Shown piece by piece: positions 26,320-46,489 of a stretch of DNA of 64,000 nt. Origin of the DNA: Lachnospiraceae bacterium (GTDB taxonomy: Bacteria > Bacillota > Clostridia > Lachnospirales > Lachnospiraceae); NCBI GenBank assembly GCA_902363555.1, contig CABJAM010000002.1, positions 489,709 through 553,708 on the forward strand, read 5' to 3'. A program made the position numbers and the translations under genes. The notes under the pieces are model-generated. The model saw only the letters and a list, made by a program, of their open reading frames with translations, did no database searches and was not told where the DNA came from. Position 1 is the first letter of the stretch. Every line of letters begins with the position of its first letter.

Positions 26320-26453
26320 CGTCATTTTTGTATATTCTTAGGTCATTTTTGTTGATTATTAAATTTCTATAAAAATGCTATGATACAAATATACAAAAAA
26401 CAAACCGATGCTTTGTGCAATATGAGCATCCACGAAATTCAGGAGGTAAGTAT

Positions 26454-28085
26454 ATGAAAAGATTTTTGGCAATCGCGCTCGTACTTGTCATGTCGTTATC
26501 TTTATTGGCAGGCTGTGGTTCCAGCAATTCCGGCTCTAAGGACACAAAAGCCCCGGCCGCAACCGAAGCAAAGGGTGATACCGCAGCCCCCGACGGAACG
26601 CAGGCTCCGGACGCTACCGATGGCAGTGAAGGCGGCGCAGCCTCTGCCGGCACATCAAAAGATTACATCAACTTTGACGAAGACCCCTATGAAGTTGTTA
26701 TTGAATGTCTGAACCTTGGCTCCAACGCCGAAAGTGTTCCAGCTATGGAAGAAGCCATTAACGCCATTACAGTTCCGGCAATCAACGTTAAGGTTAAGCT
26801 TCAGGTCATCCACATTGCAGACCATGCCACAAAGACAGCCCTGTGGGCCGCCGGTGGTGAAAAGATCGATATCTATTATGTTGGTACGACCGTAGCCTTC
26901 TCCCAGTTCGTATCCGATGGTATGATCATCCCGATCACCGACTTACTTGCAGAACGCGGCGCTACACTGAATGAAAAATGTGCTGAACTTCTGGACGCCT
27001 TTACTGTTGAAGGCGAGATTTATGCCATCCCTCAGGATATCTACTGCGCAGCAGCCAGAGGTATTGACTATAATGCCGATATGGCAAAGGAATGCGGTAT
27101 TGAACTTCCTGAAAAATGGGATATGCAGGCGATGACAGATATCGGCCATGCAATCAAGGAAGCGAATCCGGAATACTATCTGATGGCTAAAAACGGTTCT
27201 CAGGATGCCGGTGAAATCTATTACTACTACGGTATGGATGGTTTCGGCAGCAGCACCGGCGCTTACGGCGTTTTCTTAAATCCGGAAACCGATACCGAGA
27301 TCGTAAACCTTTATACATCCGATGAATTTAAAGAGTACTGCAAATTCAACATCGAATGGAAGGAAAATGGCTTTATGCCCGCAGACCAGGCAGTGAACGG
27401 TGAAAACGCCCAGGACGTTTACAGAAATGGTATGAGCTTCTGCCAGTGGGTAAGCGTTCGTCCTTCCGAAGAAATTTCCAAACAGAACTTTACACCATTT
27501 GACAGCCAGGAAGCCGCATTTACAAATGCATGGTTTACAAGCTCAGGTGTACAGGAAAAAGCATGGGGCATTTCCACAAACTGTGAAAAGCCTGAGAAAG
27601 CTATGGATTTCTTAAACTTCTTATATGAAAATACAGAAGTTGCCAATATCCTCAACTATGGTATTGAAGGTACCGATTACGTTTACACCGATGGCTCCGA
27701 CAAGATCATTACATATCCGGAAGGCATCGACTCCACAAACGTGGGCTGGAACCGTTCCTTCTGTATGTTTGGCGACCAGAGCGAAATCAACCAGATGGTT
27801 CCTGCCACAGAAGAATACTATACAACACTTAAAGAATTTAACGATAACGCTGTTGCCTGCAAAACTCTTGGCTATTCTTTCGACGCCACCAACGTTTCCA
27901 CACAGGTAGCCGCAGTGTCCAACATCGTTCAGGAATACGTTCCAAGCCTTGTTTACGGTGAAATTTCCGAAGATAAGCTGGATACCTATCTGGAAGATAT
28001 GAACGCTAAGCTTGAAAGCGCCGGCATTCTGGATATCATCGCCGAGAATCAGGCACAGCTCAACGCATGGCTTGAAACCAGATAG
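26454..28085 (+). CDS. ABC transporter substrate-binding lipoprotein (LplA-like)
   Basis: Lipobox LLAGCGSS. Size about 540 aa. AGGAGG RBS. Confidence 0.9.
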   Translation: MKRFLAIALVLVMSLSLLAGCGSSNSGSKDTKAPAATEAKGDTAAPDGTQAPDATDGSEGGAASAGTSKDYINFDEDPYEVVIECLNLGSNAESVPAMEEAINAITVPAINVKVKLQVIHIADHATKTALWAAGGEKIDIYYVGTTVAFSQFVSDGMIIPITDLLAERGATLNEKCAELLDAFTVEGEIYAIPQDIYCAAARGIDYNADMAKECGIELPEKWDMQAMTDIGHAIKEANPEYYLMAKNGSQDAGEIYYYYGMDGFGSSTGAYGVFLNPETDTEIVNLYTSDEFKEYCKFNIEWKENGFMPADQAVNGENAQDVYRNGMSFCQWVSVRPSEEISKQNFTPFDSQEAAFTNAWFTSSGVQEKAWGISTNCEKPEKAMDFLNFLYENTEVANILNYGIEGTDYVYTDGSDKIITYPEGIDSTNVGWNRSFCMFGDQSEINQMVPATEEYYTTLKEFNDNAVACKTLGYSFDATNVSTQVAAVSNIVQEYVPSLVYGEISEDKLDTYLEDMNAKLESAGILDIIAENQAQLNAWLETR

Positions 28086-33064: not shown

Positions 33065-34012
33065 TTATCGTATTCCCAGTTCCTTCTGCATCATCAGCCG
33101 CTCTTTAATCAAGCGGACAAAGTCCTCCGGCTCTGTCACGCGCACCAGCGGCCCAAAGGAAAGGACGCGTATAACAAGCTCTGTCGCGTCTCCGGCATCA
33201 TAAAACACCTTCACCTCGTAGAAATTATCAGAGAGACGCCGGGCTTCCTTTTGAAAGTGTGCAAAATGGAGCATGACCCGCTCCAGGGCATTTCTCTGGT
33301 CTGTCAGCCGGAGCACAAAATAATGCTTTTCCTTTTCGTCCGCGGAATGCTCTGCACTAAAAACCTCATCGGTGATCTTGCAGTCCGTTATCCTGCTCAT
33401 ATTAATCATACAGCTTCCCTGGCGGCGGGTCGCGATCAGCCGGAACTTATCATCCTTCTCAGAATATTCCAGCTTATGAGGTGTGCACATAAGCTTACAC
33501 AGCCGGCCATGCCGGTTATGAAATCGCAGTCTCAGATTTTTTTCCTGCCGGATCGCCTTTAATATGATCTGAAAATTTTGTATATACACCGGATCTGAAA
33601 AGTCATCGCCATCCTTATACTGATCAAAAACCGTAAAATCCTCCGGCGTGAACAGGGGCTCCATCTTATCGGCCATTGCCCATATATCCGCTAAATCTGC
33701 GGAAGATTTCTCTGTCGTCAGGTCACAAAACAGACAAAACCTGGGGTCCAGACGGATGGACTTGAGCCACCGCAGCTCAAGAGTGGTCAACGGCATTTCC
33801 AGCTTCTGCTTCAATGGCGTATGCAAAGCGTCATCCAGCAGGGGCCACTGATGACTTTCCAGCGCAGGCACAATGGTCATCGCACTTTCGGCAAAAGCCA
33901 TTTCGTGAATGATCCTGTACATTTCATTGGAGGTCAGCTTTCCATCCACCGCCAGCGCCAGTACTTTAGCCACCGCTTTATAATAGCAGCCGTAAATTTC
34001 ATGGAACAGCAT
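33065..34012 (-). CDS. WYL-domain transcriptional regulator (with WCX-like C-terminal domain)
   Basis: Central WYL-like beta-barrel region (RLRFHNRHGR...FRLIATRR). AAGGTGGTG RBS before MLFHEIYG. Confidence 0.65.
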   Translation of the reverse strand: MLFHEIYGCYYKAVAKVLALAVDGKLTSNEMYRIIHEMAFAESAMTIVPALESHQWPLLDDALHTPLKQKLEMPLTTLELRWLKSIRLDPRFCLFCDLTTEKSSADLADIWAMADKMEPLFTPEDFTVFDQYKDGDDFSDPVYIQNFQIILKAIRQEKNLRLRFHNRHGRLCKLMCTPHKLEYSEKDDKFRLIATRRQGSCMINMSRITDCKITDEVFSAEHSADEKEKHYFVLRLTDQRNALERVMLHFAHFQKEARRLSDNFYEVKVFYDAGDATELVIRVLSFGPLVRVTEPEDFVRLIKERLMMQKELGIR

Positions 34013-35309
34013 CCGTATCACCACCTTCCAGATCATAAAGCCTGTACATATCCCCCATATCCGCGCGGAACTGATTTTCCACGGTCCGGTTTGAGAAATC
34101 CATCTGGACGATACGGCAGATAAATGTACGTATCCATGGGATCATTTCCGTTGTATCAAATATATCGGCCGTAAAACGGGCCGTATGGGCATCGATGCGT
34201 TCCACCTGTCCGCAGCGCCGCTCCCGCATCAGCCGCTGATAGATATGCTCCTCGCCCCGGCCGATGTGTATCGTAAATTCCACATGCTCCAGATGCGATA
34301 ATTTATTTTTACACTGCACACCCCACATATGCTTTTTCAATACTTCCAGCCTTTGTCGTAACGACTCAAACTGCGCTGCTTCCGTACCCGGATCTACCTG
34401 GGTAATATAATCCAGGCGGTAAGATTCCATACATTTATAGGGTACACAATACCCCATCAAATACTGGCGTCCGGTCTGGGCGCTGACAAAAATCTGAAGC
34501 GGGATGACCTCCCATGACCTGGGCGTTTTAGTCACCCGGCTATAATTTTTTATAAACACAGACCGCCGGGCATTTATAGCCTCCAGCAGCTCATATAGTA
34601 TCTCACTCTCCATGGCATATGTAATGTAATGATGCTTAAAAGCAAAGCAGCTCACAGCCCCCTGGGAATGGTGAGCTAAAACCGGTGATATTTTCTCAGC
34701 GCCGGAAGTTCCAGCATCCATCCGGTCCAGCAAATAACTTCCGATAACGCCCAGAAGTCCGGCTTCGGAAAAGAACGCCACCGCCTCCGCCGCAGGCGCC
34801 AGATCATACGATGGACTTCGGCCATAAAGGACCGTCCTTCCGGCCTTTTCCGTATGGAGCAGCCCCATTGCCGCATATTCCTTTAATTTATTCCGCACCG
34901 TAGAAGCATCAAACAGCATGGGCGGTGAAAAGTGCGACAGATAATCCCGGTCCATAAGCTCCATAATCTCATTCAATGATAATCGTATTTCAGGATCACA
35001 CAATATATCCAATAGTATAAAATGCAGCGTAATATCTCCATCCGTAAAGCTTTTCGCCTTGAACGCCTGGTACAGCGGATTATGCCCGGTACTTCTGCTG
35101 TCAATGGACAGGAACATATTTTTTCCGCCCTGTTCCATACGAAAGGACATATAGTCACCCAAATAGCTTTCGATACGTCGGCGCTCATTGTCATAAGACC
35201 GGGCGCTTTTATGGTCAAATTCGTCACGGCTTTTGAAACCATAGACGTAAAACTCGCGCATATAATCACGGATGCGTTCAAATACTTTGATCCGCTCAGA
35301 ATAGGGCAT
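33999..35309 (-). CDS. WYL-domain protein (second, tandem)
   Basis: WEVIPLQIFVSAQTGRQYLMGYC is a WYL core. GGGAGGTG RBS before MPYSERIK. Confidence 0.6.
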   Translation of the reverse strand: MPYSERIKVFERIRDYMREFYVYGFKSRDEFDHKSARSYDNERRRIESYLGDYMSFRMEQGGKNMFLSIDSRSTGHNPLYQAFKAKSFTDGDITLHFILLDILCDPEIRLSLNEIMELMDRDYLSHFSPPMLFDASTVRNKLKEYAAMGLLHTEKAGRTVLYGRSPSYDLAPAAEAVAFFSEAGLLGVIGSYLLDRMDAGTSGAEKISPVLAHHSQGAVSCFAFKHHYITYAMESEILYELLEAINARRSVFIKNYSRVTKTPRSWEVIPLQIFVSAQTGRQYLMGYCVPYKCMESYRLDYITQVDPGTEAAQFESLRQRLEVLKKHMWGVQCKNKLSHLEHVEFTIHIGRGEEHIYQRLMRERRCGQVERIDAHTARFTADIFDTTEMIPWIRTFICRIVQMDFSNRTVENQFRADMGDMYRLYDLEGGDTDAVP

Positions 35310-35367
35310 AGATACACCTCCCGCAATGCAGCCATTCAAAAAGAGCCCAACGGCTGCATCTTATTGC

Positions 35368-36324
35368 TTATTGTGACCGGATGATATTTTCCAGTTTTCT
35401 TATCGTCATCCGGTCTTTGGCTTTATTGGCCAATAACAGGCTGACCAGTACGGCCATCAGCAGTTCTACAAATAACCGCTTACCGGATATAATACCTGGT
35501 TTGGGCCTTATATCCAGATACCATGTCGTTCCTGGTACATCGAAGGTATAAGCGCCCTTCTGCTCCATAATGTCTCCGGACGATGCAAGGACATAATTGT
35601 TAAATTGATAAGGGCACGATAGCGTATAGCTGTAAGTGTCAAGATAATAATTCAGCAAAGTACTTCTGGGCAGCACCGCCGCCATATATCCTCCATTTTC
35701 ATAATTATTCATAGATCTTACAAGAGCAAAATCCTCGAATCCCAAGGGAAATATATAATCCTGGCCATTGGCCAATGCTTCACAGGCTTTGTCTCTGAAA
35801 TAGATATAATTATAATTCAGCAACGCTGTGCCTATGGACTCCGCTTCGCTGCCATAGAGCATAAAGTCGTGCCCACGCATATAATCCACAATTTTTTGTG
35901 CCGCTCTTGATCTCAATATGATTTCGGTTCCCGTATTTCTTCCCGAACGCCAGTATGAAAAAGCGGTACCCTGTTCAGGAATATAAGTCAGGCTGTCCAC
36001 ACTCAAATCCGATGTAACTAAAAACTCTATATGATATTTAAATATAGATTCATTCTCATTAAACACATCGGAATAGTAGTCCTCACATGCCTGATCCATC
36101 AGGGAAATCGTTTTGTCCAGGGCATTTTGTACGTACTCCTGACATTCTGCAACATATGCGGATAGTTTCTGTTTTGCCCGAACATAATGCAAAAATTCAA
36201 ATATTAAGAAAACACTTAGGCTGATCACCAGCGTTAAAATAAACACGTTGCTAAAAACCTTTCCCTTTTTATCCCACTGCTCTAATTTCTTTTCCAAAAG
36301 AACCCCTCCTCTCATAAACCACAC
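35368..36324 (-). CDS. membrane protein resembling the N-terminal sensor part of a YesM-type histidine kinase (truncated?)
   Basis: TM1, an extracytoplasmic domain of about 230 aa, then TM2, ending 18 aa after TM2 with no kinase domain. Confidence 0.45.
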   Translation of the reverse strand: MWFMRGGVLLEKKLEQWDKKGKVFSNVFILTLVISLSVFLIFEFLHYVRAKQKLSAYVAECQEYVQNALDKTISLMDQACEDYYSDVFNENESIFKYHIEFLVTSDLSVDSLTYIPEQGTAFSYWRSGRNTGTEIILRSRAAQKIVDYMRGHDFMLYGSEAESIGTALLNYNYIYFRDKACEALANGQDYIFPLGFEDFALVRSMNNYENGGYMAAVLPRSTLLNYYLDTYSYTLSCPYQFNNYVLASSGDIMEQKGAYTFDVPGTTWYLDIRPKPGIISGKRLFVELLMAVLVSLLLANKAKDRMTIRKLENIIRSQ

Positions 36325-36560: not shown

Positions 36561-36572
36561 ATATATATTATT

Positions 36573-37799
36573 TTAAAGTACAGAAATCGGACAATACCAG
36601 GTTTCGCGATTGTATGGAATCAGCGCATCGCTCATACAAAGGATGAGCCCCGGCTGCACATCCATTTTAAACGAACTGAGAACGCCAAAGTTTTTATCCG
36701 GCTTAGAAGGTTCCTTTCCCTTTTTAATTTCAATAGGAAAAATCTTGTCTCCTTTCACAATCAACAGATCGATCTCCTTTTTGTCCATATCCCGATAGTA
36801 AAACAAGTCTGCAGGTTTCCCCGCATTATAATAGCTTTTAACAATTTCTGTTACCACCCAGGTTTCAAGAAAAGCTCCATCCATTGCACCATTTTCCAAT
36901 GTTTGTGCGGTAGGCCAGCGGCATAGATATGCAGCGAGCCCTGTATCCATGAAATAGACCTTAGATGTTTTAACCAGTCGTTTTGTAATGTTTGAATAAT
37001 ACGGCCGAAGGATGAAAATTATGCCGGAACGCTCCAAAATGGAAACCCAAGCCTTAGCAGTAGGTGCAGATACTCCAATCGTGTTTGAAATTTCATCATA
37101 CTTCAGTTCCTGACCCGTCCGCGCTGCCATATAAACAAGAAAATCATAAAATTCATTCAATTTCCCCACCTGTGCTAAATCCTTGATATCCCGCTCAATG
37201 TAGGTATTGACGTAGTCCATATAAAAACGTTCCCGATCAATTGCTGTAGCACACAGTTTTGGCATACCGCCACGGAAAATCCGTTCATAAATCTGATGAA
37301 CATCTTTCTTTTTACAATCCTTCATCCTTTCACGAATCGCTGATAGTTCTGGTTCAAACATACCGGATGGACGCCCTTCTATTTCTGATTCTGAAAGGCT
37401 GGACATATCAAAGACTGCGATCCGTCCTGCCAATGACTCGGAAACATCCTGCATCATTTTGAACTTCTGTGATCCCGTGATCCAGAACATTCCACTGTTA
37501 TCCTCACCGGCAAGCGCTTTCTGATCAATAATCTTTTTCATTTCCAGTAGTATAGAAGGTACACGCTGAAACTCATCAATAAGAAGCGGATATCCATAGG
37601 TTTCAAAAAAAAGAGCCGGGTCTGTGAGGGCTAATCTGCGGGCATTGCCATCATCCAGTGTAACATATTGGCGGTTCGATTCCCTGATGTGATTCAGCAT
37701 CGTCGATTTACCTACCTGACGCTGGCCGCAAACCATCACAACCGGGTAATACTTTGAAGCTTCCAATACTTGCGCTTCTAAGTGACGTTGAATATACAT
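36573..37799 (-). CDS. AAA-family ATPase with DUF4143 domain (paralog of 4372-5745)
   Basis: P-loop GQRQVGKST. RBS AAAGAGGTG. Confidence 0.8.
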   Translation of the reverse strand: MYIQRHLEAQVLEASKYYPVVMVCGQRQVGKSTMLNHIRESNRQYVTLDDGNARRLALTDPALFFETYGYPLLIDEFQRVPSILLEMKKIIDQKALAGEDNSGMFWITGSQKFKMMQDVSESLAGRIAVFDMSSLSESEIEGRPSGMFEPELSAIRERMKDCKKKDVHQIYERIFRGGMPKLCATAIDRERFYMDYVNTYIERDIKDLAQVGKLNEFYDFLVYMAARTGQELKYDEISNTIGVSAPTAKAWVSILERSGIIFILRPYYSNITKRLVKTSKVYFMDTGLAAYLCRWPTAQTLENGAMDGAFLETWVVTEIVKSYYNAGKPADLFYYRDMDKKEIDLLIVKGDKIFPIEIKKGKEPSKPDKNFGVLSSFKMDVQPGLILCMSDALIPYNRETWYCPISVL

Positions 37800-39478: not shown

Positions 39479-39513
39479 AAAGGGCAGTACCAAAACGATA
39501 CTGCCCTTTTAAT
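39479..39513. terminator. hairpin terminator downstream of the XRE/lanM transcription unit
   Basis: AGGGCAGTA-CCAAAACGA-TACTGCCCT followed by TTTT. Confidence 0.55.
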
Positions 39514-39521
39514 CCCTATAC

Positions 39522-39842
39522 TCATTTCAACGACCGTATAAATTCCAGCAACGCCCTTTCCGATTCCGGCTTCAATCCCCGGAGCAGCTCGATGATCTCC
39601 CGCTCATTCGGGCTTGGATAAATAATATCCGCATCCTCATCACAAAAAAATTCGCTCAACGACACACCCATGCAGTCCAACAACCGCCTCAGCACATAAA
39701 ATGACGGCTGACTGTTCCCGCGCTCAATGGCGGTTATATGGCTCTGGGATATATCGGATACCAGGGCCAGCCGATACTTACTCATCCCTCTTTGTAACCT
39801 GATCTTTTTCATCGTATAGCCAATGTTTTCTTCCGTTATCAT
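39522..39842 (-). CDS. XRE-family HTH transcriptional regulator
   Basis: HTH (MSKYRLALVSDISQSHITAIERG). AAGAGGTGA RBS before MITEEN. Its 5' end overlaps the lanM 3' end. Confidence 0.75.
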   Translation of the reverse strand: MITEENIGYTMKKIRLQRGMSKYRLALVSDISQSHITAIERGNSQPSFYVLRRLLDCMGVSLSEFFCDEDADIIYPSPNEREIIELLRGLKPESERALLEFIRSLK

Positions 39843-42800
39843 TACCCTCACCTCTTATTAATTTCAACAGGCCATAGCCTATTCCACTAATTCCCGGCAT
39901 AAAACCTGCATTATAAAGCTCCTGAGGTAAAAATTCCATACGCTGCGTTGCTCTGATCAAATCTGTTATAATGTCCGTACAGTATTTTCTCAGTTCGTTC
40001 GCTTTATCGGAAGCAAATCCACATTCTAAAACCATCGCTGCGATCATGGCATTGCCTGTATTTCCATGGCACAGACAATAGCCCTTGCGATATTTATTTT
40101 CCATCATCTTGCTGAGTGCCTTTTGAATATCTTCATCCACGATCTCAGCCGCAATTTCCGGACACATCTTTTTCATGGCAAGACGCGCCATAAGCACACC
40201 GGGAGCACCATGACACCAGGCCACCGTATCAAAATAAGTATCATCACCGGCCGCCGGTTTGCCATGACTTATTTTCCGTAAGTCCTTCCAGTTCTTTATC
40301 GCCGGCTCATAAAGGGAATTTTCGTAAGCCAGCAGTTCCCCCAGCAATAACGCATCATCCGGGTTATGTGTCACGGCATACAAATGAGCGAAGGCTGCGA
40401 TAAAACCACTGTTTCCATGGGAAATGCCCGCCAGCGGAACTTCCTCGCCTTTAATACGCCAGCCTTTTCCCACATCCATCGACTGTGCATGCCCACGTAA
40501 TAGCTGTGCGGCTTCCTCCGCCAGATCAAGATACTTTTGCTCTTTCGTCAGCTCATACAACAACACCCAGGCAACCATCGCGCCTGCATTTCCCGACAAA
40601 AGGTCAAAACACGTATCCTCACGAAATACTTTTTCAAGGACCTCGCTGTGCTTCCGGGCAAAAAGAAGGTATACCGGGTCCTCATAGGTTTTGTACCAGC
40701 ACAAATATACGTAAATCAAAGAGGCTTCCCCGGAAAAGATACCGGAATTGGCCTTCAGCCCGGTCTGGCTGAGCTGTTTCGTTGTATAATCAAAAAGCTG
40801 CCGCCGGATACACATAAATATATTTTTAAATCGGGCTTCCCCCGTAACATTCCAAAGCTCAGACATAAAAAGGCCGGTTCCGGCCAATCCATCATACAAA
40901 TACATATTTTGAACGCCCAGATGCCAATTGACCTCATCCATTCCCAAATAGATCAGCGCCGGCCACAGGGCCTCCTGAGTTACATCATCGTAAATCATCA
41001 GATCCAGCAAATGCCCGCCAAGCCGTACGGCCGTGTCCAGACAATCCTGCTGTGTCCATGGCCTGCTGTTCTCATCATTTTTTTCCAGATATGTATTCAC
41101 ATAGCTTCTGGCCGTATCCGGTATGAGCTCCAGCGACAGAGAGATGATTCCGGTCTGAAAATTCCGGTCAGCACTACACAGGCCGGATAATTTAGCTTTA
41201 AAGTCATCGAGCGCCGACGTTTTATAATAGTTTTCATATTCCATGCCAAAGCTGTCAAACAAAGAGCATGTCGTACCCTTTGTATAAAAATATGGAATAT
41301 CCCGGTAGCTGAGACATTCCGTCTCATACCGGACAATTTTATTCTTCCACGGACCTTTGACCTTGTCACTGTTGCGCAGTTCCCAGAAAAATAAATTCTG
41401 GCGGTACATATCCGTCAAAAACGCCGGGTAGGCGGATGTGCTCATATACATACTATATTGCTGTGTATTTCTAAGCAGGCAGCGGCTGTTCAGATTAAAA
41501 ATATCCTCCGCACCGCTGAGTAATTCTTCCCGGTGAGCACACGCATAATCGTAGGCCATACGAAAACCGGAAAGCAGTTCCTGCGTATATTCCGCCGGGT
41601 CCACCATACTGCCATTCAAAATCGGAAGATTGTCCTTCATCTCGATTTCGGGATGGTACATCACGATTTTCATATCCGAAGTTTTTCCGTTCACGGCACA
41701 CGGCACTTTCACAGGAAGCTTCTGCCGTCCGCCCTTGCCCAGGGCTCCCAGCCGGACACCCCGGCCGTCAAAATTCCATACCGCCATAGGCAGCGCTCCG
41801 GTGGTCAATGTGGAATTTGCCAGCTTGATCAATGCCTGTGACTGGATACTGCCATCCTCACTCTGCCATGATTTCCCCGGAAATGTCTCCAGATCCACAA
41901 GCACAGGATACTCGCCCACAGCCATTATATTTTCATAATGCATATCTTTTATGGAGAACAGATAACAGATAAAAAGCTGTATGCCAAGGCGCCGGTAATA
42001 GCGTCCGATTTCTTCCCGGCGATGGCAATGATCCGTATGTAAAAACTCCGACCAGCCATAGCTGCCCCGGTCCAAAAGCTTACATTCGTAAATGTCCAGC
42101 CCGCAGGCATTGGCAAAACGGCTATACAGCTTTTGATATAAAATATCATTTTTAACTGTTCTCGGTTTATATATCAAGGTGCGTCCATTATCAAAAGTAA
42201 CTTTAATGACAGTTCTTCCGCCAAAATGCGCATCCGAAAAATTCATTTCCAAATCCAAAATTTTTTCGATACGGTTCCCATCCAAAAGTGTCGTCTCAAT
42301 ATCCGCTTTATCATCCAGAAAATGCTGGGTAAATTCCTCAAGATATCTTCCAAGCTGTAATGTCATATTTAAATACAGCCGGAGGATGACCGGATATTTA
42401 TCCAGCAATTTCTGATGATGCTCCCGGTCGGCCAGGTAATGGCTCACATAAAATTCATATTCTTCTTTTGAATTATTCCCGGTAAGCTGCTGTTGATTTT
42501 TCAGAGCCTTCATGTCGTTGATCAAAACTCTCAGGGCCAGAGATTCCGTTTTCTTAAACAGAAGCATGAGAAGCATCGTCTGAATCTGACTGTTATAGCT
42601 TAACCAGACCGTCTCATGGTGCTTCAAAAAATACTCACCGGCAAATCCCATCAAAGGTTCATAAAAGCTGTAAAAACATTCTTCCCGAAGCCAGGCTTCG
42701 TAGTAGTTATGCTCTTTTGCTTTATATTCCTGAATCATCTCGCTTAATATGGCATCATCGTTGTTCTTATAGCAATCGTCCGAACTCGCTAATACATATT

Positions 42801-42891
42801 CAAGCGTGGACTTTCCCAGAAGGTCCGACCAGTATTTGCGTTCAGGTGAATTTTTTAAAATCTCTTTTGCCCATTGATTTTTACGGTACAT
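39778..42891 (-). CDS. lanM: class II lanthipeptide synthetase (LanM)
   Basis: 1037 aa. N-terminal dehydratase domain plus C-terminal LanC-like cyclase with zinc-ligand motifs WCHGAPG and CHGNTG and GxAG repeats. AAAGGAG RBS. Confidence 0.9.
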   Translation of the reverse strand: MYRKNQWAKEILKNSPERKYWSDLLGKSTLEYVLASSDDCYKNNDDAILSEMIQEYKAKEHNYYEAWLREECFYSFYEPLMGFAGEYFLKHHETVWLSYNSQIQTMLLMLLFKKTESLALRVLINDMKALKNQQQLTGNNSKEEYEFYVSHYLADREHHQKLLDKYPVILRLYLNMTLQLGRYLEEFTQHFLDDKADIETTLLDGNRIEKILDLEMNFSDAHFGGRTVIKVTFDNGRTLIYKPRTVKNDILYQKLYSRFANACGLDIYECKLLDRGSYGWSEFLHTDHCHRREEIGRYYRRLGIQLFICYLFSIKDMHYENIMAVGEYPVLVDLETFPGKSWQSEDGSIQSQALIKLANSTLTTGALPMAVWNFDGRGVRLGALGKGGRQKLPVKVPCAVNGKTSDMKIVMYHPEIEMKDNLPILNGSMVDPAEYTQELLSGFRMAYDYACAHREELLSGAEDIFNLNSRCLLRNTQQYSMYMSTSAYPAFLTDMYRQNLFFWELRNSDKVKGPWKNKIVRYETECLSYRDIPYFYTKGTTCSLFDSFGMEYENYYKTSALDDFKAKLSGLCSADRNFQTGIISLSLELIPDTARSYVNTYLEKNDENSRPWTQQDCLDTAVRLGGHLLDLMIYDDVTQEALWPALIYLGMDEVNWHLGVQNMYLYDGLAGTGLFMSELWNVTGEARFKNIFMCIRRQLFDYTTKQLSQTGLKANSGIFSGEASLIYVYLCWYKTYEDPVYLLFARKHSEVLEKVFREDTCFDLLSGNAGAMVAWVLLYELTKEQKYLDLAEEAAQLLRGHAQSMDVGKGWRIKGEEVPLAGISHGNSGFIAAFAHLYAVTHNPDDALLLGELLAYENSLYEPAIKNWKDLRKISHGKPAAGDDTYFDTVAWCHGAPGVLMARLAMKKMCPEIAAEIVDEDIQKALSKMMENKYRKGYCLCHGNTGNAMIAAMVLECGFASDKANELRKYCTDIITDLIRATQRMEFLPQELYNAGFMPGISGIGYGLLKLIRGEGNDNGRKHWLYDEKDQVTKRDE

Positions 42892-42990
42892 GAAAGTCTC
42901 CTTTTAATTCTACTTTGGGATTATAACAGTCTTTCTCTATACAGCCTAAAATCGTATTTAACATAGCCACATAGAATCATAATAATCACA

Positions 42991-43131
42991 AATTATTTTC
43001 TTAGCAGCAAATGATAGTTAAAAACTCACTACATAATGCTGTAATGCTTACAAATCCCTCTACTTCTGTGTTATTCTCAAACTTTTTAATCTCTTTTATT
43101 TCCTCAGCTATGTTAGCTTCTTCAAACCATT
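42991..43131 (-). CDS. lanA: candidate lanthipeptide precursor peptide (LanA), 46 aa, absent from the ORF track
   Basis: Translation MELKWFEEANIAEEIKEIKKFENNTEVEGFVSITALCSEFLTIICC. GAGGTG RBS 9 nt upstream. Acidic helical leader followed by a Ser/Thr/Cys-rich C-terminus. 99 bp upstream of lanM on the same strand. Confidence 0.55.
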
Positions 43132-43168
43132 TTAATTCCATATTTCATTTCACCTCATATGCTTTCAT

Positions 43169-44479
43169 CTAACGAAAAAATGTTATATCTATCCTGAAAC
43201 TTCGTTCATCAAATCTGGTTTCCATTTGACCATTATATTTGTTGACTATTGATTGAATACTAGCTATTCCCCAACCATGGTCGCTGCTTTTGCCTTTTGT
43301 TGATACCATTTGTTCATTTTGTATTATCGGTTTCATTGCAGAGCTATTTTCTACACTTATACCAAAAATATTCCCTTTAGAAAATATCTCAACATCAATT
43401 TTACGGTGTTTAGGTTCGACTTTAAATGCAGCCTCAATAGCATTATCAAGAATATTACCTAATAAAATACTCATATCTCGTTCTGATAATGGATTTTCTA
43501 CCGGAGATACGTTAATATTCATTAGAATCCCAAGTTCCTTAGCTTTTCGCTCTTTGCTATCAAGCATCATATCAATAAGTGGACAATTGGACCGTGCACG
43601 AACTTTGTCATCACCATGACTTAGTTCGCCAAACATTTCATTAAGAAAAGCTCGCGCCGCTCCGTATCTTTCTTCCCTAAGATACCCATCTAAAGTACTA
43701 ATTTGATGTTTTAAATCATGCATTTCCTTTGAGCTTCTTTTATATTCTGCTTTTATTTTTTCATATTCTGCATCCATCATTGCATCGTGAAGTTTCCGCA
43801 AATGAATCTCTTTCTCAGACTGACGATAGATGACTAAAATAATTACTACTATCATCAGTAACAAAGAACAGAAAACAAATAAAAGGTTATAAAAAAATAC
43901 TACACTGCCAGTTTCCTGAAAACCTATTTTCAAAAAATATGTAATTATCCACCATTCTATAAAGGCTAAGGCCACCCATAAAATATTCATTTTGCCTATC
44001 AATATTTTATTAAGTTTAGTTCTTATAACCTTACCCCAAATTTTTACAAAAACAACCAAAATACATGAAATTAAAACCAAATAAATATAGTCGTATATGA
44101 TCGTCTCTTTATTACATTTCAGAAATGGCTTACCTGTAATCCATCCGCTCAAAATTAAGCCTGGCAGTTCTAAAACTGATATGCTCATAAAGTAAATACT
44201 AGACCATGCAAAAGTTTTTAATATATTTATATTCGTAAAAATACAAGCTGAAATAAAATATAAAATCAATTGCATTACAAATATCACATTTGAAAATCTA
44301 ACACCAAACAATCTGTTGATAAATGTCAAACCGCCAATAATACCCATAAACATGGTATATTCCAGTACCCGTACCCACGCCTGCTTAAATCTCCGATGCT
44401 CAGGTACGTCAAATAACCAATAGCCCACCCAAACTTCCACTCCGATATTAAATAAATCCATACACATTCGTATGAACAT
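43169..44479 (-). CDS. AgrC-like multi-TM sensor histidine kinase
   Basis: Six or seven TM helices plus a GHKL ATPase domain. Start codon overlaps the regulator's stop (TAATG). Confidence 0.8.
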   Translation of the reverse strand: MFIRMCMDLFNIGVEVWVGYWLFDVPEHRRFKQAWVRVLEYTMFMGIIGGLTFINRLFGVRFSNVIFVMQLILYFISACIFTNINILKTFAWSSIYFMSISVLELPGLILSGWITGKPFLKCNKETIIYDYIYLVLISCILVVFVKIWGKVIRTKLNKILIGKMNILWVALAFIEWWIITYFLKIGFQETGSVVFFYNLLFVFCSLLLMIVVIILVIYRQSEKEIHLRKLHDAMMDAEYEKIKAEYKRSSKEMHDLKHQISTLDGYLREERYGAARAFLNEMFGELSHGDDKVRARSNCPLIDMMLDSKERKAKELGILMNINVSPVENPLSERDMSILLGNILDNAIEAAFKVEPKHRKIDVEIFSKGNIFGISVENSSAMKPIIQNEQMVSTKGKSSDHGWGIASIQSIVNKYNGQMETRFDERSFRIDITFFR

Positions 44480-45198
44480 TACCTTTTCCTCCTGTAATAC
44501 TCGCTGACTGCCTGTTTCACCTCGCGGATACGGCTGCGGCTGACTTCAACAACATAATCCTTAGTCAGCTCCATTTTGCGATCATCAATACCATTTACAT
44601 GGCTTAAATTGACAATAACGCCTTTATTCACAAAGATAAAACTATCCGAATTCAACACCCTAAGGATGTTGGTCAAAGAACTGCGAACACGATGTTCACC
44701 CGCTCTTGAATATATGATTGAGTATTTCTGGGTCTCTTTCTCAATTTTTATGATATCCGAATGGCAGATCAGAATATTTCCCTGAGGCCGGTCGATCACA
44801 TAATAACGCGCCTTCATTCGTTCCAGTTCCGGTATAATATAATCAAAAGCTTCCGGAAGCTTTTCGTTAATTTTCTCTTTCATAATGTAACGAAAAGCTG
44901 CAACTTCATAACCATCCGTAGCATACTCATTATGATTGGTTATGAATATAATAAAGGCTTCATAATATGCCGACCGTATTGTACGGGCAATGTCGAAGCC
45001 TGTGAACTCCGGCATTTCCACATCCAAAAGATAAATATCAGCTCCTTTACCTTCCAGAATGTCCTGTTTCAGAAAAGAACTGCTTTCATAAGATTCAATT
45101 TGAATCTCTCCCCCTCGTTTTTCAGAATACTCCCTGACCACATTTTCGATATGCCGGATATTCTCCGCTTCATCATCGGCAATGGCAATTTTAATCAC
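44479..45198 (-). CDS. LytTR-family response regulator (AgrA-like)
   Basis: Receiver domain plus LytTR domain. GTG start with AAAGGAGG RBS. Confidence 0.85.
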   Translation of the reverse strand: MIKIAIADDEAENIRHIENVVREYSEKRGGEIQIESYESSSFLKQDILEGKGADIYLLDVEMPEFTGFDIARTIRSAYYEAFIIFITNHNEYATDGYEVAAFRYIMKEKINEKLPEAFDYIIPELERMKARYYVIDRPQGNILICHSDIIKIEKETQKYSIIYSRAGEHRVRSSLTNILRVLNSDSFIFVNKGVIVNLSHVNGIDDRKMELTKDYVVEVSRSRIREVKQAVSEYYRRKR

Positions 45199-45435
45199 TC
45201 ACTCCCCTCCTTTCTTTTTAAAAGTAAGCGGAAGTATTGGCTAAATATTGGTTGTCCATATTATACTATAAAATTTCCACTTATTACCATCTTGTCCACA
45301 AAAAGTGATATACTGTCCACTTTTTCGTCAAAAAGGGTTATATTCCGACATTATATGTGGTTTAGCCATTCCTAACCAATAATAATCACAAAAGTTACCT
45401 CTAATCATTATAGCACATAGCGACCACATATTGCC

Positions 45436-45474
45436 AAAAAATCCCAGAAACAATTCTGCTCCTGGGATTTTTCT
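45436..45474. terminator. hairpin terminator downstream of the aldo/keto reductase gene
   Basis: ATCCCAG...CTGGGAT followed by TTTTT. Confidence 0.55.
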
Positions 45475-45496
45475 ATAATGTTCATATTCATTTTTA

Positions 45497-46489
45497 CTAC
45501 TTAAAACTTATCTCATCAATCTTCTGCAATTCCTCCGCAGAAAACTCTGTCCGGTGCATTGCCTGGATATTTTCCAAAAGCTGCTCCGGCTTTGAGGCCC
45601 CCACAAGGACACTGGTCACGATACCATCGCGAAGAATCCAGCTCAATGCCATTTCCGCCAATGTCTGTCCGCGGCTCTCCGCGATCGTATTCAGTTCCCG
45701 TATCTGCTGCAAACGTACATCCGTGATCGCATTGGCATTAAGAAAACGGCCATCCGTCTTGACGCGGCTGTCCTCAGGTATTCCATTAAGATACCGTTTC
45801 GTCAGCATTCCCTGTTCCAATGGACTGAATGCGATGATTCCCTTGCCTTCCGCAGCCGCAGCCGCTTTCAAACCGTTATTTTCGATTGTTCGATCCAGGA
45901 TGGAGTAACGGTTCTGATTAATTACAAATGGACAATGCAGGTCTTTTAAAATCGCCGCTGCTTTTTCCATCGTCGGCCCATCGTAATTGGAAATTCCGGC
46001 ATAGAGGGCTTTTCCGCTGTGCACAGCCTGGGCCAGTGCCCCCATCGTCTCCTCCAGCGGAGTTTCCGGGTCCATACGGTGATGATAAAAAATGTCTACA
46101 TACTCCAGCCCCATACGCTTTAAGCTCTGATCCAGGCTGGCCAGCAAATACTTGCGGCTTCCCCAGTTTCCATAAGGCCCCTCCCACATATCATAACCGG
46201 CTTTCGTGCTGATGATCATCTCATCCCGGTAAGGCATAAAGTATTCCTTCAAAATCCTGCCGAAATGAATCTCCGCACTGCCGGGCAGAGGGCCATAATT
46301 GTTCGCCAGATCAAAGTGCGTGATTCCGTTATCAAAGGCGGTAAAACACAGCGCCTTCATACGCTCATAGGATGCCGTATCGCCAAAATTATGCCACAGA
46401 CCAAAGGATATGGCCGGAAGCTTGAGCCCGCTTTTTCCACAGCGGTGGTAGATCATCGTTTCATAACGTTTATCGGATGCCTGATACAT
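45497..46489 (-). CDS. aldo/keto reductase
   Basis: AKR fold and conserved motifs. GAGGAGG RBS. Confidence 0.9.
   Translation of the reverse strand: MYQASDKRYETMIYHRCGKSGLKLPAISFGLWHNFGDTASYERMKALCFTAFDNGITHFDLANNYGPLPGSAEIHFGRILKEYFMPYRDEMIISTKAGYDMWEGPYGNWGSRKYLLASLDQSLKRMGLEYVDIFYHHRMDPETPLEETMGALAQAVHSGKALYAGISNYDGPTMEKAAAILKDLHCPFVINQNRYSILDRTIENNGLKAAAAAEGKGIIAFSPLEQGMLTKRYLNGIPEDSRVKTDGRFLNANAITDVRLQQIRELNTIAESRGQTLAEMALSWILRDGIVTSVLVGASKPEQLLENIQAMHRTEFSAEELQKIDEISFK

What the first reader, a model, noticed from the sequence alone, without database searches (positions are those of the whole stretch)
42991..43131. Unannotated 46-aa precursor peptide (MELKWFEEANIAEEIKEIKKFENNTEVEGFVSITALCSEFLTIICC)
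Read from the minus strand between the kinase and LanM genes, with a GAGGTG RBS 9 nt upstream. It has an acidic amphipathic leader and a C-terminal core with 3 Cys and 5 Ser/Thr, consistent with a lanthipeptide substrate. It also loosely resembles AgrD-type signal precursors. The leader has no double-glycine cleavage site, so the cleavage and export route is unclear.
Basis: seen in the sequence. Interest (0 to 1): 0.7.

Follow-up and report, generated by a model that had tools for sequence, protein, structure and literature searches.

The report
Lanthipeptide precursor wired to AgrC-like sensor
A real 46-residue gene between a membrane sensor kinase and a ring-forming enzyme belongs to a large, apparently undescribed family of modified peptides in gut Lachnospiraceae, and it most likely makes the signal the neighbouring sensor detects rather than a classical antibiotic.

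Summary
The ORF is real, but it lies at 43001..43141 (-), 10 nt from the reported coordinates. Public gene sets, NCBI among the sources, already call it. It sits in a tight five-gene cassette: LytTR response regulator, AgrC-type kinase, peptide, LanM, XRE regulator. The regulator-kinase-peptide-LanM module recurs in 61 of 70 informative Lachnospiraceae loci, down to about 30% LanM identity. An exhaustive profile search finds 341 peptide clusters.

Family peptides end in T-x-x-C-C, with Ser/Thr at -15, -13, -5 and Cys at -10, -2, -1. That is exactly the register of the ring-forming residues of plantaricin C, and the window peptide matches every position. A leave-out HMM scores it 43.9 bits, against 13.1 for the best shuffle.

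The family differs from classical relatives. It has no double-glycine site, no LanT exporter, no conserved ring-A Glu, and an AgrC/LytTR system instead of HisKA/OmpR. Three 21/19-bp direct repeats plus a -10 box upstream of the operon are conserved in a relative.

Best reading: a LanM-cyclised autoinducing peptide for the adjacent kinase. Export and leader cleavage remain unexplained. No paper describing the family was found.

The parts
45273..45320 (-). Three direct repeats upstream of the operon: GTGGACAG (45320-45313), GTGGACAA (45299-45292), GTGGAAAT (45280-45273), start-to-start spacing 21 and 19 bp. Candidate LytTR response-regulator binding sites.
   Evidence: Seen. The pattern RTGGAMA-N14-RTGGAMA has its only two exact matches in the 64-kb window here, against 0.33 expected at <=1 mismatch. 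All three boxes are conserved in L012 while the DNA further upstream is unalignable. Other clades have their own repeats at 20-21 bp. Binding itself is inferred.
45260..45265 (-). TATAAT -10 box of the putative autoregulated promoter, with no good -35 hexamer
   Evidence: Sequence. Conserved in L012 within a block about 90% identical that runs from box 1 to the RR start. The simple promoter scan did not list it because there is no -35 match, which is typical of activator-dependent promoters (inference).
44479..45198 (-). Response regulator, receiver plus LytTR DNA-binding domain (239 aa, GTG start)
   Evidence: Pfam Response_reg 5.6e-13 and LytTR 7.3e-11. Full-length match to ComE 4cbv, E 2.9e-7.
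43169..44479 (-). AgrC-type (HPK10) sensor histidine kinase, 436 aa: polytopic N-terminal domain of about 225 aa plus a GHKL catalytic domain. Its start overlaps the RR stop by 1 nt.
   Evidence: Pfam HATPase_c_5 5.8e-22. Several hydrophobic segments in residues 1-225. The only PDB hit is the S. aureus AgrC kinase module 6e52, E 1.5e-5. It aligns to the AgrC model NF046015 over residues 40-415, but at 31 bits against a cut-off of 500.
43151..43156 (-). GAGGTG ribosome-binding site, 9 nt before the peptide ATG
   Evidence: The spacer from the HK stop to the peptide ATG is only 27 nt, so the peptide is most likely co-transcribed with RR and HK (inference).
43001..43141 (-). LanA precursor peptide ORF (46 aa plus stop). 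Leader roughly M1-E28/G29 (43055-43141). Core roughly F30-C46 (43004-43054), with ring-forming S32, T34, C37, T42, C45, C46.
   Evidence: The leader/core boundary is inferred from the onset of conservation at -15 and the acidic position -19. The cleavage site is unknown.
39778..42891 (-). Class II lanthipeptide synthetase LanM (1037 aa), apparently catalytically intact
   Evidence: Pfam DUF4135 7.9e-96 and LANC_like 2.9e-55. NCBIfam TIGR03897 739 bits against a cut-off of 304. PDB LicM2 6st5 E 2.5e-86 and CylM 5dzt. Invariant columns across 14 relatives include D316/H318/N321, H825-G826, W892-C893-H894-G895 and C941-H942-G943. I read these as the kinase-like and zinc-site motifs from my own knowledge of LanM/LanC enzymes.
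39522..39785 (-). XRE-family helix-turn-helix regulator (87 aa from the ATG at 39785). Overlaps the LanM stop by 8 nt, so it appears translationally coupled.
   Evidence: Pfam HTH_3 3.3e-13. Called as an 87-aa gene in L001/L099. Homologous XRE genes occur in 25 TCS-linked loci, usually divergent upstream.

Best explanation
The ORF encodes the precursor (LanA) of a small class II lanthipeptide, and that peptide is the self-made signal of the two-component system it is embedded in.

Proposed sequence of events:
1. A promoter upstream of the regulator gene transcribes RR, HK, lanA, lanM and xre as one unit.
2. LanM binds the acidic helical leader (family motif ..G(D/N)L..E(L/I).E..K(L/F)..) and dehydrates S32, T34 and T42, and perhaps S38.
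3. LanM then adds C37, C45 and C46 to the dehydrated residues. This gives three thioether rings in the plantaricin C / lacticin 481 register, predicted as S32-C37, T34-C45 and T42-C46.
4. The leader is removed somewhere between E28 and V31, and the hydrophobic tricyclic peptide of about 16-18 residues reaches the outside by a route not encoded in the cassette.
5. The peptide is sensed by the polytopic domain of the AgrC-type kinase.
6. The kinase phosphorylates the LytTR regulator, which binds the three GTGGA(C/A)A repeats and raises transcription of the operon (positive feedback).
7. The co-transcribed XRE protein relays or damps the output.

What is shown: the ORF, its family membership, the conserved ring-forming register, the gene order, the protein families, and the conserved repeats.

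What is inferred: ring connectivity, secretion, ligand-receptor pairing, regulator binding, and signalling rather than killing as the main role.
For: (1) Real, conserved coding gene.
- A small ORF lies at the same position in loci with LanM at 85, 55, 45 and about 30% identity.
- The leave-out HMM gives 43.9 bits against 13.1 for the best of 2000 shuffles.
- The ORF stays open in one frame while the flanking spacer is unalignable between the window and L011.

(2) Lanthipeptide substrate.
- It sits next to an intact LanM.
- In 188 representatives, C-1 and C-2 are 100%, T/S-5 100%, C-10 80%, T/S-13 97% and T/S-15 81% (similar).
- These are the positions of the modified residues T13, T15, C18, T23, C26, C27 of plantaricin C (PMC6107846).
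- hhalign against the GG-leader peptides, three of which were tested and pass the plantaricin C model: 97.2%, E 4e-11.

(3) Coupling to the sensor.
- HK and LytTR RR lie directly upstream on the same strand in 61 of 70 loci with enough upstream DNA.
- Gene junctions in the window are -1, 27, 109 and -8 nt.
- The kinase's only solved relative is AgrC, and the regulator matches ComE over its full length.

(4) Autoregulation.
- There are three direct repeats at 21/19 bp plus a TATAAT box.
- This is a phylogenetic footprint about 90% identical to L012, while the RR protein is 71% and LanM 55% identical.
- Other clades have clade-specific repeats at 20-21 bp.

(5) Not a typical antibiotic cluster.
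- No LanT, S8 protease, cluster-5 ABC ATPase or second LanM is found in 64 kb.
- LanT occurs in 12 loci, 10 of them HK-less.
- Only 15 of 188 peptides have any GG/GA/GS 12-30 residues from the end. Asp/Glu at -11, the ring-A acidic residue of 'TVSx[ED]C' (PMC13289728), appears in only 16-19%.

(6) Signal-like diversification.
- There are 186 distinct 17-residue C-termini among 188 representatives, with fixed ring positions.
- At least six genomes carry two different cassettes.
Against: - No exporter or leader protease is encoded in the cassette or elsewhere in the 64-kb window, and no conserved cleavage motif exists. Secretion, which the model needs, is therefore unsupported.
- The nearest full-length relatives carry ABC-type components downstream of LanM that the window lacks: an ABC ATPase with unknown multi-TM proteins in L012, and a MacB/FtsX permease in L014. 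The window cassette may therefore be a reduced or non-secreting version.
- The kinase sensor domain does not diverge faster than its catalytic half, unlike agr specificity groups.
- No within-species allelic variants of the peptide were seen.
- About 40 loci have an extra conserved protein of about 190 aa with unknown function that the window lacks. The model does not explain it.
- Classical lantibiotics (nisin, bovicin HJ50) are both antibiotic and inducer, so TCS linkage alone does not exclude antimicrobial activity.
- Everything here is computational. There are no expression or mass-spectrometry data.
Confidence: 0.55

Rival explanations
1. It is an ordinary autoregulated lantibiotic. The modified peptide is mainly an antimicrobial of the plantaricin C / lacticin 481 type. 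The two-component system only switches production on, possibly using the lantibiotic itself as inducer as in nisin or bovicin HJ50. Export, leader cleavage and immunity are provided by genes elsewhere in the genome.
For: - The peptides are homologous to plantaricin-C-type precursors and share the ring-forming register.
- The LanM clade includes bona fide GG-leader plus LanT loci nested among the TCS-linked ones.
- About a third of TCS-linked loci have multi-TM or ABC genes downstream that could be LanFEG-like immunity or export.
- Lantibiotic autoinduction through two-component systems is established (PMC10663231; PMC10301443 discussion).
Against: - The window has no transporter, protease or immunity candidate within 64 kb.
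- LanT travels with the HK-less loci, not these.
- The ring-A acidic residue and the cationic N-terminal tail of plantaricin C are absent: Asp/Glu at -11 is 16-19%, and the window has Leu36 there.
- There is no GG site for a PCAT exporter.
- The curated plantaricin C model does not recognise the window peptide.
Confidence: 0.27
2. The peptide is modified but not secreted as a diffusible signal. It might act from within the membrane or cytoplasm on the kinase, or have a cell-autonomous role. Alternatively, in this particular lineage the cassette is a decaying remnant that lost its transporter genes and is no longer functional.
For: - No export or cleavage function is present in the cassette or the window.
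- L012, at what appears to be the same chromosomal site, has about 6 kb of membrane and ABC genes between LanM and the nucleoside hydrolase that the window lacks.
- The closest relative, L011, has its LanM split into 733-aa and 269-aa ORFs, which hints at decay in this clade, unless it is an assembly error.
- The core is very hydrophobic (FVSITALCSEFLTIICC).
Against: - All five genes are intact in the window and identical across at least 24 contigs from independent samples.
- The promoter footprint is strongly conserved.
- The ring-forming residues are conserved between the window, L011 and L012, with synonymous changes in the ORF.
- Most TCS-linked loci also lack a linked transporter, so its absence is the family norm rather than a sign of decay.
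Confidence: 0.15
3. The ORF is a chance open frame in an AT-rich intergenic spacer and is not translated.
For: It is short (46 codons), the local GC content is low (31%), and there is no curated family hit.
Against: - The leave-out HMM gives 43.9 bits against 13.1 for the best shuffle and 10.0 for the best other small ORF.
- There are 341 related clusters.
- Position and register are conserved in dozens of loci.
- A canonical RBS sits at 9 nt.
Confidence: 0.01

Closest known systems
Plantaricin C and the lacticin 481 group of class II lantibiotics (PlnC/LanM/LanT)
   Same: - A LanM-modified precursor encoded immediately upstream of lanM.
- An acidic leader with a G(D/N)(L/V)..E(L).E-type motif.
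- A core ending in T-x-x-C-C, with Ser/Thr and Cys at -15, -13, -10, -5, -2, -1. These are the positions of the modified residues T13, T15, C18, T23, C26, C27 of plantaricin C (PMC6107846).
- Profile-profile homology of 97.2%.
   Different: - No double-glycine site and no C39-peptidase ABC exporter.
- No ABC-type candidate in the window, although about a third of family loci have possible ones.
- No cationic N-terminal tail or extra N-terminal ring.
- The ring-A Glu is not conserved.
- The window peptide gets no hit to NF000539, and the best HK-linked member tested scores 15.3 bits against a cut-off of 29.
- It is regulated by an AgrC/LytTR pair.
Staphylococcal/clostridial agr system (AgrB-AgrD-AgrC-AgrA)
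   Same: - A polytopic HPK10 kinase with a GHKL (HATPase_c_5) domain whose only solved relative is AgrC.
- A LytTR regulator.
- A small precursor peptide gene in the same operon.
- A cyclising enzyme next to it.
- Direct repeats about 21 bp apart upstream of the operon. The AgrA/ComE site geometry is from my own knowledge.
   Different: - No AgrB in the cassette.
- The peptide has no C-terminal recognition tail and ends at its Cys residues.
- The predicted rings are thioethers made by LanM, not a thiolactone.
- The kinase is far below the AgrC ortholog cut-off (31 against 500 bits).
- Gene order is RR-HK-peptide-enzyme.
Three-component peptide-pheromone systems of class II bacteriocin and competence loci (ComCDE, BlpRH, PlnABCD)
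   Same: The same HPK10 kinase plus LytTR regulator pairing. The RR matches ComE over its full length. A dedicated small inducer peptide is encoded beside them, with autoinduction from direct repeats.
   Different: From my own knowledge, those pheromones are unmodified, carry double-glycine leaders and are exported by C39-ABC transporters. Here the peptide has no GG site and is paired with a LanM.
Lantibiotic autoinduction via LanRK (nisin NisRK, subtilin SpaRK, bovicin HJ50 BovKR, salivaricin A SalKR)
   Same: A lanthipeptide acts as the ligand of a histidine kinase that activates its own operon. This concept is cited in PMC10663231 and PMC10301443.
   Different: - Known lanthipeptide-cluster kinases and regulators form HisKA and OmpR clades (PMC10663231). 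This one is HATPase_c_5/LytTR.
- From my own knowledge, those clusters also carry LanT/LanP and LanFEG/LanI.
CA_C0082-type LanM-like proteins next to agrBDCA in solventogenic clostridia (PMC10301443)
   Same: A LanM-family gene is physically linked to an AgrC/AgrA-type system in Clostridia and is expressed under its control.
   Different: - CA_C0082 homologs are truncated (670-728 aa).
- They lack zinc ligands and dehydratase residues.
- They sit beside a complete agrBD with a canonical AgrD, and are not needed for AIP production.
- Here LanM is full length and intact, there is no agrBD, and a LanA-type peptide occupies the operon.
Enterococcal cytolysin regulation (CylLS'' sensed through CylR1/CylR2)
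   Same: From my own knowledge and not tested here: a LanM-made lanthipeptide subunit serves as a quorum signal, and an XRE-type HTH protein (CylR2) is part of the circuit. The window cassette also ends with an XRE gene.
   Different: Cytolysin has CylB (exporter), CylA (protease) and CylI (immunity), and no histidine kinase or LytTR pair.

Membership tests
Class II lanthipeptide precursor (LanA substrate of a LanM) | Small ORF encoded next to, and co-oriented with, a catalytically intact LanM | tested here: met
   109 nt upstream of LanM on the same strand. LanM scores 739 bits on TIGR03897, and the motif columns are invariant across relatives.
Class II lanthipeptide precursor (LanA substrate of a LanM) | N-terminal leader with a conserved recognition motif, and a C-terminal core with Ser/Thr and Cys in a conserved register | tested here: met
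   Leader positions E14 and E17 are at least 90% conserved. Core positions -15, -13, -10, -5, -2, -1 are conserved. The leave-out HMM gives 43.9 bits.
Class II lanthipeptide precursor (LanA substrate of a LanM) | Double-glycine (GG/GA/GS) leader cleavage site processed by a LanT C39 peptidase domain (typical, not universal) | tested here: not met
   The window peptide has no such site. Only 15 of 188 family representatives have any GG/GA/GS at a suitable distance. There is no LanT in the window.
Class II lanthipeptide precursor (LanA substrate of a LanM) | Actual dehydration and thioether formation by the cognate LanM | not testable with these tools
   Needs co-expression and mass spectrometry.
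Plantaricin C family lantibiotic (NCBIfam NF000539) | Score above the curated cut-off of 29 bits | tested here: not met
   The window peptide has no hit at E <= 10, and the best HK-linked member scores 15.3 bits. HK-less GG-leader neighbours score 33.7-50.9 bits.
Plantaricin C family lantibiotic (NCBIfam NF000539) | Ring-forming residue register T13, T15, C18, T23, C26, C27 (counted from the C-terminus: -15, -13, -10, -5, -2, -1) | tested here: met
   The window has S32, T34, C37, T42, C45, C46 at exactly these offsets. The plantaricin C positions come from PMC6107846.
Plantaricin C family lantibiotic (NCBIfam NF000539) | Acidic residue before the ring-A Cys ('T.S.[ED]C'), GG leader, and LanT plus ABC genes in the operon | tested here: not met
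   The window has Leu36 at -11, and Asp/Glu there is 16-19% in the family. There is no GG site and no LanT or ABC genes. The motif is described in PMC13289728 and the operon in PMC6107846.
AgrD-type autoinducing peptide precursor | Processed by an AgrB membrane protease encoded alongside | tested here: not met
   None of the cassette genes or immediate neighbours is AgrB-like (Pfam). The enzyme beside the peptide is LanM. AgrB elsewhere in the genome was not tested.
AgrD-type autoinducing peptide precursor | Central AIP segment followed by a charged C-terminal recognition tail, with the Cys five residues from the AIP C-terminus forming a thiolactone | tested here: not met
   The peptide ends at C45-C46 with no tail. 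175 of 194 family representatives end exactly in CC. AgrD anatomy is from my own knowledge.
AgrD-type autoinducing peptide precursor | Cognate AgrC-type kinase and LytTR regulator in the same locus | tested here: met
   HATPase_c_5 kinase with AgrC as its only PDB relative; LytTR regulator.
Peptide-pheromone three-component system (HPK10 kinase, LytTR regulator, inducer peptide) | HPK10-type polytopic kinase plus LytTR regulator with a small peptide gene in the same operon | tested here: met
   The arrangement is conserved in 61 of 70 informative loci.
Peptide-pheromone three-component system (HPK10 kinase, LytTR regulator, inducer peptide) | Direct repeats about 21 bp apart in the autoregulated promoter | tested here: met
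   Three boxes at 21/19 bp, enriched over chance and conserved in L012. Regulator binding itself was not tested.
Peptide-pheromone three-component system (HPK10 kinase, LytTR regulator, inducer peptide) | The peptide is the ligand that activates the kinase | not testable with these tools
   Needs a reporter assay with purified modified peptide.
LanRK-type lantibiotic regulation | HisKA-family kinase with an OmpR-family regulator | tested here: not met
   The kinase has no HisKA hit and the regulator carries LytTR, not Trans_reg_C. Known lanthipeptide-cluster kinases and regulators form HisKA and OmpR clades (PMC10663231).

The most novel reading that the evidence does not exclude
Gut Lachnospiraceae use a widespread, previously unrecognised quorum-sensing system in which a LanM enzyme plays the role AgrB plays in agr. 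It turns a short precursor into a thioether-bridged (lanthionine) autoinducer that an AgrC-type kinase reads. There would be hundreds of peptide 'dialects', often two channels per genome, and no dedicated exporter or double-glycine processing. That implies a new export and cleavage route, or sensing from within the membrane. The window cassette (RR-HK-LanA-LanM-XRE) would be its minimal form.
Probability: 0.45. Interest if true: 0.8.

Novelty: new variant of a known kind. Interest (0 to 1): 0.62.

Why it matters
If the reading is right, lanthipeptides in this family are primarily signals, not antibiotics. One of the dominant bacterial families of the human and animal gut would then carry a large, diversified set of private communication channels that current annotation labels 'hypothetical protein' and that curated precursor models miss.

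It would link two well-studied worlds, RiPP biosynthesis and agr/Com-type peptide sensing, in a single five-gene cassette that is small enough to rebuild in a heterologous host.

It also sets out a concrete open problem: how a leader without a double-glycine site is removed, and how the peptide leaves the cell without a LanT.

For genome mining, the C-terminal T-x-x-C-C signature together with an upstream HATPase_c_5 kinase gives a simple rule for finding such precursors.

Tried and rejected
- **Curated models.** Pfam and NCBIfam gave no hit for the window peptide. That ruled out simple filing under plantaricin C, lacticin 481 or mersacidin.
- **Single-sequence search.** The word-index protein search with the peptide alone returned only itself. 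Relatives had to be reached through LanM synteny.
- **RNA structure.** I tested whether the 109-nt peptide-LanM spacer holds an attenuator or processing hairpin, as in many lanA-lanM spacers. The fold z-score is 0.28 and 117 of 200 shuffles fold as well. Rejected.
- **The 14-mer.** The exact 14-mer TTTGTGATTATTAT is shared between the RR-upstream region and the peptide-LanM spacer. It is not conserved in L011 or L012, so I do not claim it as an operator.
- **Fourth repeat.** The fourth RTGGAMA repeat, downstream of the -10 box, is not conserved in L012. Dropped.
- **Extra box pair.** The pair at 27895-27922 (1 mismatch) lies inside a 556-aa ORF. Treated as chance.
- **Sensor divergence.** I looked for faster divergence of the kinase sensor domain than of its catalytic half, as in agr pherotypes. 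No excess was found.
- **The ~190-aa protein.** It is not AgrB-like. It is soluble, with no Pfam, NCBIfam or PDB match, and it is absent from the window.
- **Source organism.** The NCBI accession or organism of the window could not be recovered. The genome-contig scan did not return the window's own genome; the best match was 45% identity, in Candidatus Scybalocola.
- **ABC motif tag.** My strict ABC-ATPase motif tag under-called known cases such as L012, so I rely on Pfam and on TM counts only.
- **Structure prediction.** Not used, because no single-chain model would bear on the open questions.
Full report
**1. Observation**

The coordinates given (42991-43131) are 10 nt too low. The ATG is at 43141-43139 and the TAA at 43003-43001. 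GAGGTG sits at 43156-43151, 9 nt before the ATG.

The ORF lies 27 nt after the stop of a 436-aa kinase ORF (43169..44479) and 109 nt before a 1037-aa LanM ORF (39778..42891). The residue counts are right: three Cys, five Ser/Thr, an acidic leader with 9 Glu and 4 Lys, and no GG/GA/GS.

'Unannotated' is doubtful. The identical protein is a called gene in the public collection with NCBI among its sources, on at least 24 contigs from independent samples.

**2. Neighbourhood**

Pfam, NCBIfam and PDB searches identify five tightly packed, co-oriented genes:
- a receiver plus LytTR response regulator (44479..45198), with a full-length match to ComE
- a polytopic GHKL kinase of the HATPase_c_5 type (43169..44479). 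Its only solved relative is the AgrC kinase module. It aligns along the AgrC model but far below the ortholog cut-off.
- the peptide
- an intact LanM (739 bits on TIGR03897; best PDB matches LicM2 and CylM)
- an XRE-family HTH protein (39522..39785) that overlaps the LanM stop by 8 nt

Gene junctions are -1, 27, 109 and -8 nt. The flanking genes are unrelated (aldo-keto reductase, HIT, nucleoside hydrolase, AAA/DUF4143). The HIT gene is absent from the closest relative, L011. A tblastn search finds no LanT-type exporter, S8 protease, ABC ATPase of the type seen in related loci, or second LanM in the 64-kb window. The kinase-regulator end of the cassette (43000-45500) is AT-rich: 31-40% GC against 45-56% in the flanks.

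**3.

LanM homologs form a graded series. Fetching their contigs showed the same layout of regulator, kinase, small ORF and LanM at 85% (L011), 55% (L012/L013), 45% (L014, L015) and about 32% (L016, L017) LanM identity. The small ORFs are clearly related to the window peptide.

A scan of one genome per species with a LanM alignment confirmed 381 relatives and returned 80 loci, nearly all Lachnospiraceae: Dorea, Blautia, Sellimonas, Faecalicatena, Frisingicoccus, Diplocloster, Schaedlerella and Candidatus Scybalocola. Of the 70 loci with enough upstream DNA, 61 have the kinase and LytTR regulator directly upstream on the same strand. Almost all of those have a 40-60-residue ORF between kinase and LanM.

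**4. The peptide family**

Anchoring 59 unique peptides at the C-terminus gives:
- Cys at -1 and -2: 100%
- Thr/Ser at -5: 98%
- Cys at -10: 69% (otherwise aromatic)
- Thr/Ser at -13: 88%
- Thr/Ser at -15: 80%
- hydrophobic residues at -3, -4, -6 and -7, and an acidic residue at -19 in 59%

The window peptide matches at every position (C46, C45, T42, C37, T34, S32, E28). The leader carries a G(D/N)L..E(L/I/M).E..K(L/I/F) motif, and the two Glu (E14 and E17 of the window peptide) are at least 90% conserved.

A profile search of the word-indexed database found 55 clusters, and every source name given is 'hypothetical protein'. An exhaustive HMM search of 1.84 billion representatives found 341 clusters at E <= 0.001. 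In 188 of the retrieved representatives the signature holds: CC 100%, T/S-5 100%, C-10 80%, T/S-13 97%, T/S-15 81%. The residues between these positions are hypervariable, with 186 distinct 17-residue C-termini.

Because the window peptide was part of those queries, I repeated the test without it. An HMM built from 48 members, none more than 45% identical to it over the last 24 residues, scores it 43.9 bits. The best of 2000 shuffles scores 13.1 and the best of the 459 other small ORFs in the window scores 10.0.

At the DNA level the ORF stays open in one frame only, and synonymous changes occur. The adjacent spacer cannot be aligned between the window and L011 except at the LanM ribosome-binding site.

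**5. What kind of lanthipeptide**

The loci without a kinase encode different-looking peptides with GG/GA leaders and a C-T-x-(S/T)-x-E-C motif. The three I scored (from L047, L059 and L087) pass the curated NCBIfam model for the plantaricin C family (33.7-50.9 bits against a cut-off of 29). These loci are also the ones that carry a LanT-like gene of about 700 aa.

The kinase-linked peptides do not reach that cut-off (best 15.3 bits; no hit for the window peptide). A profile-profile comparison of the two sets still gives 97.2% probability (E 4e-11), with leader and core aligned.

Plantaricin C has the core KKTKKNSSGDICTLTSECDHLATWVCC, with modified residues at 7, 12, 13, 15, 18, 23, 26 and 27. 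It has a 31-residue double-glycine leader, and its operon is plnC, lanM, a peptidase-containing ABC transporter and three further ABC genes (PMC6107846). Counted from the C-terminus, T13, T15, C18, T23, C26 and C27 are at -15, -13, -10, -5, -2 and -1. That is exactly the conserved register of this family.

From my own memory of the plantaricin C and lacticin 481 structures (not checked here), the bridges would be 13-18, 15-26 and 23-27. In the window peptide that translates to S32-C37, T34-C45 and T42-C46.

Three features of the classical relatives are missing from this family:
- the cationic N-terminal tail with its extra ring
- the double-glycine site
- the acidic residue before the ring-A Cys. 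This is the 'TVSx[ED]C' motif that PMC13289728 describes as typical, along with GG/GA and 'FTCC'. Asp/Glu at -11 is only 16-19% here, and the window peptide has Leu.

**6. Regulation**

Upstream of the regulator gene there are three direct repeats: GTGGACAG (45320), GTGGACAA (45299) and GTGGAAAT (45280), with start-to-start spacing of 21 and 19 bp. A TATAAT follows at 45265-45260.

The paired pattern has its only two exact matches in the window here, with 0.33 matches expected at one mismatch or fewer. Aligning this region with L012 gives a clear footprint. The DNA is unalignable upstream of box 1, then about 90% identical from box 1 through the -10 box to the GTG start. The proteins are less conserved than that: RR 71%, LanM 55%. 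A fourth repeat downstream of the -10 box is not conserved. Other clades have their own repeats spaced 20-21 bp.

From established knowledge of AgrA, ComE and PlnC/D, direct repeats about 21 bp apart are the usual LytTR site geometry. Binding here is inferred.

**7. Other recurring genes**

Clustering all ORFs from 89 sources gave these counts:

| Gene family | Loci | Notes |
|---|---|---|
| LanM | 88 | |
| Kinase | 70 | |
| LytTR regulator | 63 | |
| Soluble protein of about 190 aa, no Pfam, NCBIfam or PDB match | 41 (40 kinase-linked) | Directly upstream of the regulator; absent from the window clade |
| XRE protein | 26 (25 kinase-linked) | Usually divergent upstream; downstream of LanM in the window and L011 |
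| LanT-like protein | 12 (10 kinase-less) | |

What lies downstream of LanM varies. Roughly a third of the loci have multi-TM proteins that may be ABC-type, and the rest have nothing transport-related. The window's nearest full-length relatives do carry such genes: an ABC ATPase with unknown multi-TM proteins in L012, and a MacB/FtsX permease in L014. The window does not.

A rough neighbour-joining tree with midpoint rooting puts the window's LanM in a deep clade that is entirely kinase-linked, together with L012-L015, L019 and L020. The LanT/GG loci form one sub-clade nested among the kinase-linked ones. At least six genomes carry two different cassettes.

**8. Mechanism**

The best-supported reading is a self-contained autoinduction circuit:
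1. The operon makes the precursor.
2. LanM installs three thioether rings.
3. The trimmed hydrophobic core is sensed by the AgrC-type kinase.
4. The LytTR regulator binds the repeats and amplifies transcription.
5. The XRE protein is a co-expressed output or brake.

I put about 0.9 on 'genuine LanM substrate of this family' and about 0.55 on the full signalling model.

The main rival, at about 0.27, is a conventional autoregulated lantibiotic whose export and immunity genes lie elsewhere. The scaffold homology and the ABC genes in some loci favour that rival. The missing GG site, LanT, ring-A Glu and cationic tail argue against it.

A third possibility, at about 0.15, is that the peptide is not secreted, or that the cassette is a reduced remnant in this lineage. 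A chance ORF is excluded for practical purposes. Export and leader removal are unexplained under every reading.

**9. Comparison with the literature**

Nine full-text searches found no paper on this family. Only five papers in the library contain both 'lanthipeptide' and 'LytTR'.

The nearest is PMC10301443 on CA_C0082 of Clostridium acetobutylicum. That protein is a truncated LanM-like protein with no zinc site. It sits next to a complete agrBDCA and is not needed for AIP synthesis, so it is a different situation. PMC10663231 places the known lanthipeptide-cluster kinases in a HisKA clade and their regulators in an OmpR clade.

The library lacks most subscription journals, so prior description elsewhere cannot be excluded.

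**10. Verdict**

The peptide is a new variant of a known kind: a class II lanthipeptide precursor on the plantaricin C / lacticin 481 scaffold. It is placed in an agr/Com-type sensing cassette, and the usual leader-processing, export and lipid II-binding features are missing.

Noticed in passing
L016:5132-5677, L017:5253-5843, L021:4006-4581 and about 38 other loci; absent from the window: A conserved soluble protein of about 190 aa with no Pfam, NCBIfam or PDB match sits directly upstream of the LytTR regulator in 40 of the kinase-linked loci, often with a divergent XRE gene beside it. Invariant residues in 14 members include a Trp, two Gly and two Tyr (alignment A5). Its role in the cassette is unknown.
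   Followed up: partly
L011:1038-4161: In the closest relative (LanM 85% identical) the LanM gene is split into a 733-aa dehydratase ORF and a 269-aa LanC-like ORF. This is either a frameshift pseudogene or an assembly error.
   Followed up: no
window 42979-42992 and 45379-45392: An exact 14-mer (TTTGTGATTATTAT on the minus strand) occurs once in the peptide-LanM spacer and once about 180 nt upstream of the regulator gene. It is not conserved in L011 or L012, so no function is claimed.
   Followed up: yes
window 43000-45500 versus flanks: The kinase, regulator and peptide part of the cassette has 31-40% GC, while neighbouring genes have 45-56%. This is compatible with horizontal acquisition. 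L016 has a T4SS coupling-protein gene nearby, which suggests some cassettes ride on conjugative elements.
   Followed up: no
L012:6168-11973 versus window 38885-39521: L012 appears to occupy the same chromosomal site (a nucleoside hydrolase lies downstream). It has about 6 kb of unknown multi-TM proteins plus an ABC ATPase between LanM and the hydrolase. The window has only the XRE and HIT genes there.
   Followed up: partly
L024:10117-10911, L032:10429-11145, L053:10838-11545, L054:12247-12957: Several loci carry a second LytTR-type response regulator downstream of LanM. In L054 it comes with a second copy of the ~190-aa protein, which hints at tandem or nested cassettes.
   Followed up: no
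L020/L042, L023/L036, L024/L051, L025/L071, L028/L064, L033/L072: Six genomes among the 80 loci returned contain two different LanM cassettes of this kind with different peptides.
   Followed up: partly
window 27895-27922 (-): A one-mismatch match to the paired RTGGAMA-N14-RTGGAMA pattern lies inside a 556-aa ORF (26415..28085 +). It is probably chance.
   Followed up: yes
window 33999-37799 (-): Downstream of the cassette lie a WYL-domain protein (weak Pfam hit on the L001 ortholog, window 33999..35339), an unknown 318-aa protein (35368..36324) and an AAA_14/DUF4143 ATPase (36573..37799). The WYL protein and an unknown gene recur next to the cassette in L011. Not examined further.
   Followed up: no
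P0142 (821 aa, from the representative search): A large repetitive protein matched the leader part of the peptide profile seven times (repeat '...APELTGDLSAEVDEAG...'). It looks like a chance resemblance of a repeat domain to the leader motif, not a relative.
   Followed up: no
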